Source: Octopus vulgaris
Taxonomy: Eukaryota
Direction: 5' to 3'
Length of the DNA stretch: 64,000 bases
Assembly (NCBI GenBank): GCA_951406725.2
Contig: OX597828.1
Coordinates: forward strand, 31,310,001-31,374,000
Shown one piece after another: positions 3,908 to 61,363 of the stretch. Every line of letters begins with the position of its first letter. The stretch's first letter is position 1. The notes under the pieces were generated by a model. It ran no database searches. It was not told the DNA's origin and saw only the letters and a list, made by a program, of their open reading frames with translations. A program made the position numbers and the translations under genes.

Positions 3908-4320
3908 TTTTATATTTCAGGACTGTCATACTTTTGCGAAATAAACACACGCTCTGTATACTCGTTCTTCCCTTCCGCTTTCTTACTGTTCGTATTTTAA
4001 AGTCCCTTGTATAGAAATGTTTCGTCACACATCCTGTGGCCACTTAGCTGCCGCTCCATCTCACGTATTTCTTCCTGTCATGTTTTGTCCATTCTATCTT
4101 TCTATGGTGTGTGATCTTATCTAGGATCCACACTATAGGACAGAATAGATTAAATAGAACAGGAGGAAACTCACGGGATGGAGAGTAACCGAAGAGGTTA
4201 CAGGATGTGTGACGAGACGTTGGACGTAAAATAAGAACAATCATGAACAAGTGAACAACGAATATGTGGTGCGTGTACTTATTTGGCAAGAAACAATGAC
4301 CATCCCGAAATATAGCAATT
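3908..4320. mobile_element. Divergent inverted pair of decayed HHR-bearing (PLE pLTR-like) repeats
   Basis: About 3908-4090 is a diverged reverse complement of about 4150-4320 (shared cgtcacacatcctgt/acaggatgtgtgacg). Both carry a degenerate HHR core. Same family as 17360-17530. Confidence 0.7.
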
Positions 4321-4338
4321 CATATATATATTTAAAAT

Positions 4339-4568
4339 GCGGCGAGCTGGCAGAAACGTTAGCACGCCGGGCGACCTGCGTAGCCGTATTTCGTCTGTCG
4401 TTACGTTCCGAGTTCAAATTCCGCCGAGGTCGACTTTGCCTTTCATCCTTCCGGAGTCGATAACTTAAGTACCAGTTACGCACTGGGGTCGATGTAATCG
4501 ACTTAATCAGTTTGTCTGTCCTTGTTTGTCCCCTCTGTGTTTAGCCCCTTGTGGGTAGTAAAGAAATA
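4339..4568 (+). mobile_element. tRNA-derived SINE (octopus-type family A)
   Basis: Head ggcgagctggcagaaacgttagc, B-box-like gagttcaaattcc, body gtcgactttgcctttcatcc...gcactggggtcgat. Related copies at 31458, 46060 and 46808. Confidence 0.85.
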
Positions 4569-4743
4569 TATATTTAAAATTATTAATGCTAATCCTATCA
4601 ATTCACTGCTTCCCATTCCGTTATTTACCAAAATTCCTGGAATCATCACACATAGTTTAAAAGATCTCATCGAAAGTTCACATGCGTCATATTTTCACCT
4701 TTATACTTAGTCGATGTTTTCAAAATACCTCTTTAGTTAAATA

Positions 4744-5118
4744 CTAGTAGTATCGCCCGGCGTTGCTCGGGTTTTTAAGGGAAATAACTATAAAGTATTT
4801 TTAGAGAGTTATAGCCAAAAATTAGCAAAAATTAGGGTAAATATTTTTTTAAATCGTTGACTCATCGTAGACATTTTTAGAGAGTTACTTCCCTTATATT
4901 AAAAAAAAATGCCTTAAAATGGAAAAAAATGATGGTAAATTATTTTTTAAAATCATAGACTCATCGTAGACGCGCGCTAATACCCAGAAGGGCTTGATAT
5001 GAATCACGACTATAAGATACCCGGTTTTGGTTAAACTGCACTGCAAAATGTGAGAGTAGTTAGGAATCTAAATCGAAGGGGACAGACACTCACACAAATT
5101 CACTTTTATATATATAGA
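4744..5118 (-). mobile_element. Non-autonomous Helitron
   Basis: The minus strand starts A|TCtatatatataaaag and ends with the GC hairpin cccgagcaacgccggg followed by CTAG|T, i.e. inserted at an AT dinucleotide without a TSD. It has an internal tandem duplication (ttttagagagtta ... gactcatcgtagac twice). Confidence 0.8.
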
Positions 5119-5443
5119 TATTCATTGAGAATATTATATACTGAATTTATATTGAGTGCTCTATTGCATTAAATATTAATACTATTAAAGTATGTATGTA
5201 TTCAATACGAATGATAATATATATTTTATATAATATATTATTATTAATATAATAATATGTTTCTCTCTCTCTCTCTCTCTCTCTCTCTCTCTCTCTCTCT
5301 CTCCCTCTGTATATATAAAGTAAGGTATTCAGAGATCTGGATGGTTTATTAACATGTATGTTTTTACAAATCACATATTTTCATCTACTCTATTAGAATC
5401 TTCAGATTTAAATTGTATGTATATAAACAAGTGATGTATATAT

Positions 5444-57032: not shown

Positions 57033-60000
57033 TGTAGTGGGGATCAGATATTTTGTTGATGCTTAGTTCTATGGCAGACCGTTAACTACAGGCATATTTG
57101 CATGATCATTTCATGTTATTGCGCCATATAAAATCCTGCTTTTAGTGTGAGTATCCTACGGATTGGAAGACGCTTTTGTGAGATTTCCTAGGAATGCGCT
57201 GCTATTTCTATCGGAATGAAGGCCCTTTCATCGCGTATGCATGCTGACTGCATGTATTGTTAGAGACACGGATCACACGTATTTATTAATATTAAATTAT
57301 ATTACGTATCTGAGAAAGAATTCTAACAAGCAATTTGTAATTAACTGCCTTATATATACCATGTAAGTACAATTGTAAGCATGACACATCGAGCTCTATA
57401 TTTTATATACTCAGATAATTCCAATTGCAAGCTTGGCAAGATTGTTGTATATGCTGACGATTAATTGCACATTGTCGTGATCGATGCCTATTTAAATTTT
57501 GTTTTCGATAGTCTTAAAACAACACCGCATAATCTTTATTTAGTATCATCACAGAAACTTGCTATAAATTACATTCCAGTCATATTTTTCGTTTTTTGTC
57601 TGTTTGCTGTACATTGAGTGTTTCCTAAATTGCTTCATATACATTATTATTATTATTTTTTTTTTTTTGCTAAGAAAACTGAAAATCGATTTAGTGACTT
57701 CTGCTTGTAATCACTATAGAGTTTTTAGTTGAACCTACGTTATTCTAATTTTCTTATAGAAAAATCACAAGTACTTAATTCAGCACTATAGCTTCACTCG
57801 ACCCTCGAATGTACTGCTATTGTTTCATATATATATAAGTTATCTTTTATTCGTTTCTGTCATTAGACTGCTTATGGAAATTACTTACTTAGGTATTGTT
57901 TCGTTTTCGTCAGAGGAAATATAATTAGGCGTGGATAATGCATAGATATGGGACTCTAGCTTTGGGATTTCCTGTGGCATATGAGTGTTTATGCGCATAC
58001 TCTCACACATATATATATATATATATGTACGTACATATAAACAACACACACACACACACACACACAGATATATATATATATATATATATATATATATATA
58101 TATGTATGTGTGTGTGTGTGTGTGTGTAGTGCTAGAGAGGGTGAGAGAGAGAAATACACACACAAAAACTTAATCCATATCCACGGTTTTTATGCATTTG
58201 GTACTTCACACACACATACACATACAGACACACACACAATGCGTACAAACACCAACACTGCCACCCAAACACATACCCACGCAAACACACAAAGACGCAC
58301 TTATTCACCGGTCTGGTTTCTGTTGGCAATCACACATTTATATTCCATCAGGTTCCTGTCTAGCCATGCAGAGAAATTCCACACACATACACACATACAT
58401 ACATACATACATACATACATACATACATGCATACATATATACATGCATACATATATACAAACATGCATTCCTACATACATGCATACATACATACATACAT
58501 ATCATGGATTGACTGTTACTTTCTCCGATGCAGCACGGAATTTTGTCAGTGAACAGATCGTGGTTTCATAGTGACGAAATTATTTTCACAAATTCAATTT
58601 AAATTGAAGTGAATCTAACGGTTTAAAGTGGCTTATAAACATCTTCCACGCTGGAATTGTTGCTTCAGCACACGATCTCAGATCACGACACTTACTATGC
58701 AAGTACATCTCCATATGTATGTATGAGTGTATTTATTTATATATATATATAAAAATAAATACATACACACACAGATATATATGTGTGTATATATATATAT
58801 ATATATATATATATATATATATATATATATATATATATATATATGAGAATGGGAACTACGGCCGGAGAAAACCTAATGCTGATAATGTTAATATGAAAAA
58901 AGACGTATATATAAATAATTGAGAAACTACACCATGAACATTATATCGTATGATCATCACATTTTCCACAGCTACTAATATTCCTCGGAAATTCTATGTT
59001 CCATTGGGTAAATAGTTCCCACCTTTGAAGTATGTATGGGAAATTCTTTAATCTCCATACAATAAAGTTTTCGTATTAAATACCAAGAAATTTAGTTGAA
59101 ATTATAGCAGCGCATACCACAGTTAATATTATGTAGTATATGAACTTTGTACGCACGTGTAGCACCGTTAGTAGGAATTGTAAAATTAACTAATATGATA
59201 ATTTTACTGAACTAGATTTTGATAGAATACTAAGCCCATAGTAATTCCGACTGTGATAATATCTTTGAGATAACACATGGTAATAATATTAATTACAATA
59301 CTGATAATAATCCTTTATTAACACCGTCTTCTGAGACGTGAATTCATATTAATTCCTGTAACCATGAGTACCACACAGATATGAATACATACCTTGTAAT
59401 TCCAATAGTATAATCACCTTCCTCTTAGAAAATCAGTGTTTAAGGGAAAATATAGGGAACATATAGTGTATCAATGCAAGGTCGTAGATATTATCACTTA
59501 GTTTCGTCTGATACATTTTGGAAATTTAGATTACATAATCATTCTCAAGCATTTAAATATTAGAGAAAATGTAATATTTGGACATGTTTATGTGATATCA
59601 AAGTCAGGAGCTTTAACTATGCGTTATAGTGGTCCGTTCTTATTTACACACAATCATAAAACACTGAGTTTTTCCATGTGAGTTTTGCTTTGAGGAAATA
59701 TATAATATAATTACTTATAAGTTGGTAATATTGAATTGGAAAGATAATTTTACATTGAAATGTTCTCGCTAATAATAGAAATTATTTCAACACTAAGTAA
59801 CCCATTAATTATAATTCCTTTCCATAGATCAAAACTATTCAGTAAATTTAATAGAGAGATAACTAATTGCCATGTGGTAGAATTTCTATGTTTATTTATC
59901 ATTCTTTCGTTATCTTCTGACGTCGTCAAATGTTACTACATACTAACTTTCCTTAGAACATTAAATCTCTTCTTAGCGTACTTTTTGTATTCGTTCATTT

Positions 60001-60418
60001 ATCAGAGATATTTAAATTTAACCAATTTTGGATTACTTTATTAATTTTGTTGGCATATACTAATTTGTCTGGTATTTTATAATTGCTTTTCTGTATCTAA
60101 AATACGTTGGAACAATAAAAACAACCGTTGGAAATGTAAGTATTCGTGTGTCGTATATATATATATATATATATATATATATATATATATAATTAATCAA
60201 TATAGGGTGGCAAAAAAAATTTTGTAGAATTCTTTTGCCACCAGCGGCCTAGTAGGAAAAAATTAAAATAGTCATAGACCATTTTTAAGTTCAACATCAA
60301 CAATAAAGGAACGGCCATAATAGGCCATTCACCCACTAGAAATAACAGCCGAAGCTTCAACCGCAAATAAAAGTTAATTCAGTAAACCAGGAGAAAATTT
60401 AAAAACATTTACCCTGTA

Positions 60419-60525
60419 ATTTCTTATACGATATACCGTTTCATCTGCTGATTAATGGTAAACTAACCTGATTAAATTAAATCAAGCCAATCTTCCACAG
60501 GCCCTCAGATTCTTCAGTAAGAAAT
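60419..60525 (-). ncRNA. Complete type I hammerhead ribozyme (left copy)
   Basis: Reverse complement of 61054-61160, with one difference inside the stem II extension. Confidence 0.9.
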
Positions 60526-61053
60526 AGCCCAAGACGGAACAGATATTTTCACGAGGCATTTCCGACGTTGCCAAGTTTATATCTGACCTAAAATTTTCAA
60601 ATCGTCGCACTCGCGCCAAATTTATCGGCAGCAAATAAATATAAGCCGTCGATTCCATTACGGAATTAACCAGAAAATTCATAATTAATCAATATAGGGT
60701 GGCAAAAAAAATTTTGTAGAATTCTTTTGCCACCAGCGGCCTAGTAGGAAAAAAATGAATGGCCTATTATGGCCGTTCCTTTATTGTTGATGTTGAACTT
60801 AAAAATGGTCTATGACTATTTTAATTTTTTCCTACTAGGCCGCTGGTGGCAAAAGAATTCTACAAAATTTTTTTTGCCACCCTATATTGATTAATTATGA
60901 ATTTTCTGGTTAATTCCGTAATGGAATCGACGGCTTATATTTATTTGCTGCCGATAAATTTGGCGCGAGTGCGACGATTTGAAAATTTTAGGTCAGATAT
61001 AAACTTGGCAACGTCGGAAATGCCTCGTGAAAATATCTGTTCCGTCTTGGGCT

Positions 61054-61160
61054 ATTTCTTACTGAAGAATCTGAGGGCCTGTGGAAGATTGGCTTCATTT
61101 AATTTAATCAGGTTAGTTTACCATTAATCAGCAGATGAAACGGTATATCGTATAAGAAAT
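61054..61160 (+). ncRNA. Complete type I hammerhead ribozyme (right copy) with extended stem II
   Basis: AUUUCUUA-CUGAAGA-AUCUG-[58 nt]-CAGAU-GAAA-CGGUAUAUCG-UA^UAAGAAAU. 8-bp stem I, 5-bp stem II base, near-palindromic stem III, GUA triplet; predicted cut after 61152. Confidence 0.9.
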
Positions 61161-61363
61161 TACAGGGTAAATGTTTTAAAATTTTCTCCTGGTTTACTGA
61201 ATTAACTTTTATTTGCGGTTGAAGCTTCGGCTGTTATTTCTAGTGGGTGAATGGCCTATTATGGCCGTTCCTTTATTGTTGATATATATATATATATATA
61301 TATATATATATATATATATATATATATATATATATATTTGTATTTATGTGCTATCTGCGTATA

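What the first reader, a model, noticed from the sequence alone, without database searches (positions are those of the whole stretch)
3908..61283. Four independent HHR-element pairs share one geometry: ribozyme-sense strands diverge from a central junction
Seen: at 3908-4320, 16835-18135, 53960-54345 and 60191-61283 the left arm has the HHR on the minus strand and the right arm on the plus strand, across four different sequence families. Known: PLE insertions often have inverted pLTR arrangements. Inference: one shared integration mechanism in which both ends of a break, often in a microsatellite, prime reverse transcription. Each product is also a long dsRNA-forming foldback and a possible ADAR substrate.
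Basis: partly seen in the sequence, partly recalled or inferred. Interest (0 to 1): 0.7.

Follow-up and report, generated by a model that had tools for sequence, protein, structure and literature searches.

The report
Back-to-back Penelope-type ribozyme insertions
These mirror-image repeats are the known back-to-back insertions of Penelope-like jumping genes and their ribozyme-bearing passengers; in three of the four families they pair one short with one long end almost without exception, which likely means that both ends of the cut DNA prime copying of the RNA, while the fourth family shows no such rule.

Summary
The four inverted pairs are real, and all four diverge. The geometry is the published head-to-head arrangement of Penelope-like element (PLE) insertions.

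Outside the window, three families obey it:
- F4, a young 492-nt retrozyme: 63 of 63 two-arm loci diverge.
- F2, a tRNA-headed element: 19 divergent against 2 convergent.
- F1, the 3' end of an RT/GIY-YIG PLE: 11 against 1.

F3 does not (3 divergent, 3 convergent, 6 tandem), so pair 3 is probably two separate insertions.

Features that bear on the mechanism:
- One short and one long outer end: F4 62 of 62, F1 11 of 11, F2 22 of 24.
- One 9-16 bp target duplication around F2 pairs: 14 of 20, against 2 of 380 swapped controls.
- In 25 of 54 simple F4 pairs neither arm lies within the other, which argues against fold-back priming.
- F4 5' ends pile up at the ribozyme cut: 43 of 142.

Best reading: twin target-primed reverse transcription from both ends of one break (inferred). 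Only pair 4 has full hammerheads. Transcription across a pair and ADAR editing are untested. Earlier notes of this scan report the same rule on other DNA of this genome.

The parts
3906..4117 (-). P1 left arm: old F1-type PLE 3' end (pLTR); decayed HHR at 4019-4047; outer end keeps about 7 nt of the tail
   Evidence: arm limits near the centre read by eye
4124..4319 (+). P1 right arm: decayed HHR at 4189-4221; short end followed by a short TA run; near-symmetric palindromic junction with the left arm
16823..17150 (-). P2 left arm: F2 element (part of tRNA-like head at 17106-17137, (AAT)n tract, HHR remnant 16890-16923, first ~13 nt of the tail at the outer end)
17153..18137 (+). P2 right arm: tRNA-like head 17153-17200, (AAT)n tract interrupted by the nested F1 copy, minimal HHR core 18046-18081, short end
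17301..17852 (-). Young single-arm F1 copy (long end at 17301, 97-99% identical to other copies) nested in the (AAT)n tract of P2
53953..54144 (-). P3 left arm: F3 element, decayed HHR remnant 54066-54091
54145..54352 (+). P3 right arm: F3 element, variant HHR core 54216-54241; same kind of 3' end as the left arm; a few TA letters at the junction; no target duplication seen by eye
60154..60191 (.). (TA)n target, left part
60189..60754 (-). P4 left arm: 566 nt of the 492-nt F4 unit, long end (unit position 238) at the TA tract, 5' end at unit position 165
60419..60525 (-). Complete type I HHR with long stem II
60756..61283 (+). P4 right arm: 528 nt of the F4 unit, 5' end at unit position 96, short end (unit position 131) at the TA tract; one extra base between the arms; neither arm lies within the other
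   Evidence: nesting by the rule
61054..61160 (+). Complete type I HHR (stem I 8 bp, CUGAAGA core, long stem II, GAAA, predicted cut between 61152 and 61153 = unit position 1)
61282..61337 (.). (TA)n target, right part

Best explanation
Pairs 1, 2 and 4 are head-to-head insertions of Penelope-like element ends or their non-coding passengers, likely made in one event in which both 3' ends of a staggered DNA cut prime reverse transcription, one at the short-end site and the other at the long-end (tail) site of the element RNA, whereas pair 3 is probably two separate insertions. Steps: (1) A PLE endonuclease would nick both strands about 9-16 nt apart, in (TA)n for F1 and F4 and in AT-rich DNA for F2 (target bias and duplication shown; enzyme and 3'-overhang geometry inferred). 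(2) Each 3'-OH would be extended on the RNA from one of two fixed sites, 107 nt apart in F4, 53 in F1 and about 35 in F2 (fixed ends shown; priming inferred, in line with PMC11167929). Extension of the left end necessarily writes the RNA sense on the minus strand and extension of the right end writes it on the plus strand, which is the observed geometry. (3) The two cDNAs would stop, often at the RNA's 5' end: in F4 at the hammerhead cut, in F2 in the tRNA-like head (stop positions shown; cause inferred). (4) The two cDNA ends would be joined by microhomology or with a short insert and filled in (junctions shown; pathway inferred). The one-short/one-long rule suggests that the two primings are coordinated, plausibly by a dimeric enzyme on one RNA (inferred).
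For: F4: of 80 end-anchored loci, 62 are closed two-arm, 1 open two-arm, 16 single and 1 an open array; all 63 two-arm loci diverge. The partner of a 131-end ends at 228-242 in 47 of 47, and the partner of a 238-end at 127-136 in 15 of 15. Symmetric check on contigs C1-C2 (30 short ends, 95 long ends): 9 neighbours within 20 kb, all divergent with different ends. F1: 11 divergent, 1 convergent. F2: 19 divergent, 2 convergent, 1 tandem; 17 of 17 divergent at gaps up to 700 nt. SINE controls: 11/17/97 and 8/8/20 divergent/convergent/tandem. Tail on exactly one arm: F1 11 of 11 and F2 19 of 19 outside the window, plus 3 of 5 scorable loci in a second F2 set. F2 target duplication: 14 of 20 pairs (one of them microsatellite) against 2 of 380 swapped flanks, and 3 more. 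Of 54 simple F4 pairs, 25 have neither arm inside the other, 12 by more than 30 nt; permutation expects 21 +/- 3, so there is no nesting constraint. Junction overlap of 2 nt or more in 29 of 54 and of 4 nt or more in 18 of 54, against 18% and 2.5% for random joints; 20 have inserts. F4 5' ends: 43 of 142 within unit 490-25 (5.7% of the unit, p = 5e-20), with 40 in positions 1-25, 2 in 26-50 and 5 in 465-489. Both arms stop there in 13 of 62 (Fisher p = 3e-5); of the other 49 pairs, 10 stop within 10 nt of each other (permutation p = 0.0002). F1 lies downstream of, and on the same strand as, an RT + GIY-YIG ORF. In vitro a PLE protein cuts and extends both strands, starts at two internal sites that bound the tail, and is predicted to be a dimer (PMC11167929).
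Against: F3 shows no orientation bias and is nearly always single, so the model does not cover it. Two F2 loci (L309, L328) have the tail on both arms, though neither has a target duplication. 16 of 80 F4 loci are single-armed. The excess of junctions where both arms end at the same unit position is also what fold-back priming gives. Only 30 of 62 F4 pairs share the same unit register, so one linear RNA is not enough to explain all loci. The window's own P1 and P2 show no clear duplication and only partial tails, and their arms are no closer to each other than to other copies (F2 arms 81% against medians of 85-87%). Junction overlaps come from BLAST ends, which allow mismatches, while the random control is exact, so the enrichment is overstated. 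The anchored loci showed only 0.4 kb on the anchor's 3' side, which disfavours finding convergent neighbours (offset and by the symmetric loci). No autonomous partner was identified for F2, F3 or F4. In vitro, both strands used the same start sites and HHR cleavage was dispensable.
Confidence: 0.65

Rival explanations
1. Fold-back (self-priming) model: one cDNA, or an antisense template, snaps back on itself, the copy runs back along it, and the PLE endonuclease resolves the hairpin at the tail boundary. This is the reading published for Adineta PLEs (PMC3846280) and, for the tail, in PMC8557442.
For: Palindromic junctions are enriched: 15 of 62 F4 pairs have both 5' ends within 10 nt, 10 of 49 after removing those at the HHR cut. 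P1 has a near-symmetric junction. 29 of 54 simple F4 pairs are formally nested. It would also explain fixed, different ends if the nuclease cuts at a set site.
Against: 25 of 54 simple F4 pairs, and the window's P4, cannot come from copying one arm, since each arm holds sequence the other lacks; nesting is no more frequent than by permutation. In many pairs that stop at the HHR cut the short arm reaches further 5' than the long arm it would have to be copied from (for example L128, L132, L144, L162, L164).
Confidence: 0.2
2. Independent insertions into the same target tract, with later loss of some orientations. This is unlikely for F1, F2 and F4, but it is the preferred reading of pair 3 (about 0.65 for that pair).
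For: F3 is abundant (16 hits in 600 kb of evenly spaced DNA) and its neighbours are 3 divergent, 3 convergent and 6 tandem, none of the divergent ones abutting. Both ends of F3 copies commonly abut TA runs. P3 has the same end type on both arms and TA letters at its junction. L309 and L328 may be such cases in F2.
Against: For F4, F1 and F2: F4 had 0 hits in the same 600 kb yet is two-armed in 63 of 80 loci; ends are always different (62 of 62); and one duplication brackets both F2 arms.
Confidence: 0.1
3. Assembly or library fold-back artefact producing palindromes.
For: P4 arms are 99% identical, and such structures are known to trouble assemblies (PMC8557442).
Against: Arms end at different fixed sites, flanks differ, junctions carry microhomology or inserts, and P1-P3 arms differ by 20-32%. 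A contig from an independent run spans the P3 junction (54013-54299).
Confidence: 0.02

Closest known systems
Insertions of endonuclease-bearing Penelope-like elements, e.g. Pen2a_Av of Adineta vaga (Arkhipova et al. 2013, PMC3846280; passages read), D. virilis Penelope (PMC2377424; passages) and the survey of Craig et al. 2021 (PMC8557442; passages and section 11)
   Same: Head-to-head inverted 5'-truncated copy; tail on one of the inverted ends; 8-10 bp target duplications; microhomology or palindromes at the junction; (TA)n bias in Neptune, Naiad and Hydra; HHR in the pLTR.
   Different: Those texts call the tail optional and 30-40 bp, and propose self-priming on an antisense template or nuclease resolution. 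Here the pairing is near-obligate short + long, tails are about 35, 53 and 107 nt, and many pairs are not nested. Mostly non-coding elements are involved.
Poseidon of Anolis carolinensis in vitro (Frangieh et al. 2024, PMC11167929; parts 1-2 of 4 read)
   Same: Both strands cut and extended; two internal start sites that bound the tail; AT-rich target; predicted dimer.
   Different: The parts read give no model for the inverted product, report no strand difference in start site, and find HHR cleavage dispensable, with no RNA reads ending at the cut. F4 genomic copies end preferentially just 3' of the cut.
Metazoan non-LTR retrozymes (Cervera and de la Pena 2020, PMC7229834, passages; Li, Clavereau and Pollet 2026, 10.64898/2026.07.22.740005, part 1 of 5 and passages)
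   Same: F4 is a non-coding tandem unit with one type I HHR per unit, in dispersed copies and arrays; PLEs are the proposed mobiliser.
   Different: The unit is 492 nt with a long stem II. Term searches of these two main texts found no description of inverted two-arm insertions; their supplements were not read. Cleavage and circular RNA are not shown for F4.
L1 twin priming (Ostertag and Kazazian 2001; recalled, not read)
   Same: Both nicked strands prime on one RNA, giving divergent arms joined by microhomology inside one target duplication.
   Different: In L1 (recalled) the second primer anneals at variable internal sites and the two arms do not overlap. Here both starts are fixed and the arms copy the same sequence, which needs strand displacement, a circle or two RNAs.
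tRNA-headed HHR repeats such as Schistosoma Sm-alpha (recalled)
   Same: F2 has a tRNA-like head, a simple-repeat spacer and an HHR-bearing 3' part.
   Different: F2 inserts with the PLE two-arm signature. Pol III transcription was not tested.

Membership tests
EN+ Penelope-like element (F1; pair 1 and the nested copy) | RT with C-terminal GIY-YIG endonuclease in the same element | tested here: met
   L095/L096 carry RT motifs and a GIY-YIG domain upstream of F1 on the HHR strand. Pfam PF01541 E 6e-4 and PF00078 E 0.004, both below gathering score. An 803-aa relative at 95% identity is named RT-domain protein. The window itself holds only the non-coding end.
EN+ Penelope-like element (F1) | Head-to-head inverted 5'-truncated copy with a tail at one end | tested here: met
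   11 divergent, 1 convergent; tail on one arm in 11 of 11
Neptune clade (F1 partner) | CX2-5CxxC linker and CCHH motif in the endonuclease; placement by RT phylogeny | tested here: inconclusive
   A CX4CxxC linker and CCHH-type residues are visible in the translation (by eye), which fits Neptune and not Hydra as defined. No tree was built.
Hydra clade (F1 partner) | CCHH absent, CxCX5C linker, DKT motif | tested here: not met
   P0001 has DKS, not DKT; the translation shows a CX4CxxC linker
Non-LTR retrozyme (F4) | Tandem non-coding unit with a type I HHR in each unit | tested here: met
   492-nt period, arrays of many units, complete type I fold
Non-LTR retrozyme (F4) | Self-cleavage and circular RNA | not testable with these tools
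   Only indirect: 5' ends pile up just 3' of the predicted cut
PLE-mobilised element (F4, F2) | PLE insertion signature: two fixed ends, head-to-head arms, target duplication or TA target | tested here: met
PLE-mobilised element (F4, F2) | Shared 3' end with an identified autonomous PLE | tested here: inconclusive
   No PLE ORF was found joined to F2 or F4 in the loci held; no genome-wide partner search was run
tRNA-derived SINE (F2) | tRNA-like head with pol III boxes at the 5' end | tested here: inconclusive
   An 82-nt head with A/B-box-like motifs by eye, at which many arms begin. ARAGORN found no tRNA in the window and Rfam no tRNA match in L047 or L059.
PLE-type two-arm insertion (F3; pair 3) | Head-to-head bias, and one short plus one long end | tested here: not met
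   3 divergent, 3 convergent, 6 tandem among 98 hits; no second end type found
ADAR substrate | Transcription across both arms and A-to-I editing | not testable with these tools
   Hairpins are predicted; only assembled contigs of guessed RNA runs were available

The most novel reading that the evidence does not exclude
A PLE enzyme dimer grips one hammerhead-cut (or circular) RNA at two fixed registers and copies it twice at once from the two ends of a staggered cut about one helical turn wide. The head-to-head pLTR, the one-sided tail and the target duplication would then be one product, and the ribozyme, dispensable in vitro, would set the template's 5' end in vivo. Retrozyme arrays would be written by this reaction directly.
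Probability: 0.4. Interest if true: 0.72.

Novelty: new member of a known kind. Interest (0 to 1): 0.5.

Why it matters
How PLEs make their tandem and inverted insertions is stated as an open question (PMC8557442), and the one published proposal found here is self-priming (PMC3846280). Young, non-coding, high-copy families record the reaction in hundreds of copies. The short/long rule, non-nested arms, one shared duplication and stops at the ribozyme cut discriminate between models, and they give precise predictions for the existing in-vitro Poseidon assay. They also give genomic support for PLEs as the mobilisers of animal retrozymes.

Tried and rejected
Rfam scans: only microsatellite-driven miRNA hits and no hammerhead among those listed. 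MFE folds of short decayed HHR stretches did not give hammerhead folds.

Search for a second F3 end or tail: the 135 nt after the P3 right arm matched none of the other loci held, and no inverted upstream arm was found next to truncated F3 copies.

Second F2 sample (the first 30 of 64 matches): 21 of 30 loci are copies of one multi-kb repeat carrying a single passenger F2 fragment, with no PLE ORF among the ORFs listed for the four loci translated. They were dropped, leaving 9. In one search the script scored the wrong left hit for L309 and missed the left tail of L328; both were corrected by eye. One search dropped F1 pairs through a de-duplication error; one search replaces it. The TSD test is uninformative for F1, whose flanks are TA (7 of 12 against 74 of 132 swapped).

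Expression: no RNA holder is on record for F4. Contigs of three guessed-RNA runs cover repeats, including the F4 unit, and leave most unique flanks uncovered; this is no evidence either way. No contig joint bridging an empty P4 site was among the rows shown.

Literature searches that found no twin-priming or dimer model for PLE inversions. No paper held octopus + ADAR + inverted repeats + Penelope; one search listed no octopus retrozyme paper among 20 shown of 48. The library lacks most subscription papers (for example Arkhipova 2006, and Evgen'ev and Arkhipova 2005), and no supplements were read, so absence from print is not established. PMC9977147 (passages) was not relevant.

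
Full report
SETTING. The window is G000:C15:31310001-31374000 of a 2.8-Gb animal assembly. A protein 95% identical to a PLE ORF of this genome is labelled Octopus vulgaris by NCBI, so the host is octopus-like. The window is rich in microsatellites and SINEs.

OBSERVATION. The four inverted pairs are real: P1 68%, P2 80%, P3 75%, P4 99%. They belong to four families (F1-F4). At family level the hammerhead core lies on one strand only (34 of 41, 43 of 55, 39 of 51 copies; 0 on the other strand), and in each pair that strand points outwards. 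Only P4 has complete type I ribozymes; four of the other six arms hold remnants. Most F1 copies have the variant core CUGAUGC and many F3 copies CCGAAGA, so their activity is doubtful (inference from the recalled consensus). P2 is mis-drawn in the finding: its arms meet at about 17140-17153 in tRNA-like heads, and a young F1 copy sits inside the right arm.

WHAT THE FAMILIES ARE. F1 is the 3' end of a coding PLE. In L095 a GIY-YIG ORF precedes it on the same strand, and L096 shows RT motifs and the same domain; the Pfam scores are below gathering thresholds. Linker and Zn motifs look Neptune-like by eye; no tree was built. F2 is an 82-nt tRNA-like head, an (AAT)n tract, an HHR and a tail of about 35 nt; no ORF was found joined to it. 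F3 is a copy of about 210 nt with an optional CA-rich upstream part of up to about 800 nt. F4 is a 492-nt tandem unit with one HHR per unit, 99% identical among the top hits, with 1447 first-look candidates and arrays of many units: a retrozyme by anatomy.

ORIENTATION ELSEWHERE IN THE GENOME. For F4 I took the first 60 of the 100 listed (181 total) exact short ends and the first 20 of the 100 listed (681 total) exact long ends. Result: 62 closed two-arm loci, 1 open two-arm, 16 single arms and 1 open array; all 63 two-arm loci diverge. That design sees little of the anchor's 3' side, so I also paired the complete end lists of contigs C1-C2: 9 neighbours within 20 kb, all divergent, all with different ends. 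The symmetric loci show no convergent pair. For F1-F3 and two SINE controls I ran profile searches over 291 loci (1.49 Mb, window excluded, including 600 kb of evenly spaced DNA). Divergent/convergent/tandem counts: F1 11/1/0 (p = 0.006), F2 19/2/1 (p = 0.0002; 17/0/0 at gaps up to 700 nt), F3 3/3/6, controls 11/17/97 and 8/8/20. Three families obey the rule.

THE TWO ENDS DIFFER. F4 arms end at unit position 131 or about 238, and every closed pair has one of each (47 of 47 and 15 of 15); independent choice would give about half alike. All 62 partner flanks are TA runs. In F1 the tail (53 nt) is on exactly one arm in 11 of 11 pairs, and in F2 in 19 of 19 outside the window. A second F2 set adds 3 short/long loci with duplications, 2 long/long loci without, 1 unclear and 3 single, after 21 passenger copies were dropped. 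F2, which is not TA-targeted, shows one 9-16 bp duplication around both arms in 14 of 20 pairs, against 2 of 380 swapped flanks: both arms arrive in one event. The window's P1 and P2 keep only the first 7 and 13 nt or so of the tail and show no clear duplication.

JUNCTIONS. Of 54 simple F4 junctions, 29 overlap by 2 nt or more, 18 by 4 or more, 5 are blunt and 20 have inserts (the random control of 18% and 2.5% is stricter than the BLAST overlaps). In 25 of 54 neither arm is contained in the other, 12 by more than 30 nt, close to the 21 +/- 3 expected without constraint; P4 is such a case. A fold-back copy must be nested, so self-priming cannot be the general route. 5' ends cluster just downstream of the predicted HHR cut: 43 of 142 in 28 nt, with a sharp upstream edge (40 in positions 1-25, 5 in 465-489). 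A stall at the fold's 3' edge could add to this, but many stops lie inside stem I (positions 1-8). A second cluster at 201-225 (14) matches a strong hairpin. The two arms are coupled: both stop at the cut in 13 of 62 (p = 3e-5), and 10 of the other 49 stop within 10 nt of each other (p = 0.0002). This fits two enzymes running off one RNA end, but fold-back predicts it too. Only 30 of 62 pairs share a register, so circles, template jumps or two RNAs are needed for the rest.

MECHANISM. Shown: geometry, two fixed ends paired one of each, one duplication, microhomology, non-nesting, stops at the cut. Inferred: a staggered cut leaving 3' overhangs, priming from both 3' ends, coordination by a dimer, one RNA, end joining. 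Priming from both ends forces the minus-left, plus-right geometry. Confidence is 0.65, against 0.2 for fold-back with nuclease resolution.

KNOWN WORK. Arkhipova et al. [quoted passage not shown] Craig et al. 2021 (PMC8557442; passages and section 11) give the same anatomy and TA bias, and call the mechanism undefined. Frangieh et al. 2024 (PMC11167929, parts 1-2 of 4) show two-strand cutting and extension and two start sites bounding the tail, predict a dimer, and find the HHR dispensable in vitro. Retrozymes and their PLE link: PMC7229834 (passages) and 10.64898/2026.07.22.740005 (part 1 of 5 and passages). Seven searches found no text joining these into a twin-priming model, but key subscription papers and all supplements were unseen. 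Earlier notes of this scan report the same two-arm, short/long rule on other DNA of this genome. I reached it before consulting them, and they are not independent support.

dsRNA. P1, P3 and P4 would fold into long hairpins (-171, -189 and -845 kcal/mol; z = -14, -17 and -99); P2 was not folded. Whether any pair is transcribed through or edited is untested.

VERDICT. The geometry is a known PLE signature, valid for three of the four families. The value lies in the quantitative footprint, which tests how PLE inversions form. Interest 0.5.

Noticed in passing
window 5913-6444: Inverted pair, 80% identical with about 150 nt between the arms, of a dispersed family (151 candidates); some other loci also have inverted partners. 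No HHR found; possibly a MITE-like element.
   Followed up: partly
window 2104-2404: Old inverted pair (70%) next to a TG microsatellite, with no other match found in the genome.
   Followed up: partly
window 6560-6751, 35132-35363, 44500-44573, 53640-53830: Further copies of F3-related HHR-like elements beside TA tracts; the copy at about 53690-53780 converges on the left arm of P3.
   Followed up: partly
L300-L329 (21 loci, e.g. L320 1-3032): A non-coding mosaic repeat of at least 3 kb, 95-98% identical, dispersed over several contigs, carrying one F2 fragment and SINE pieces as passengers; its mode of spread is unknown.
   Followed up: partly
F3 copies, e.g. L064, L077, L078, L084, L085: F3 5' ends cluster at one site that often abuts TA directly, although longer copies run on for about 800 nt. 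It may mark a second enzyme site where the other DNA end is joined without making an arm.
   Followed up: partly
SINE at window 4337-4560 and its family: Neighbouring copies are strongly tandem (97 of 125 pairs), suggesting insertion of the SINE into or beside itself.
   Followed up: no
L128, L132, L146, L020: F4 junctions at the HHR cut carry short reiterated AT-rich inserts templated from the first 30 nt of the unit, as expected of slippage or polymerase-theta-type joining.
   Followed up: no
window 62212-62808: 199-codon ORF on the + strand with no Pfam match.
   Followed up: partly
L107 686-1219: ORF fragment resembling, by eye, the N-terminus of a Penelope/Poseidon protein, near an F1 copy but not joined to it.
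   Followed up: no
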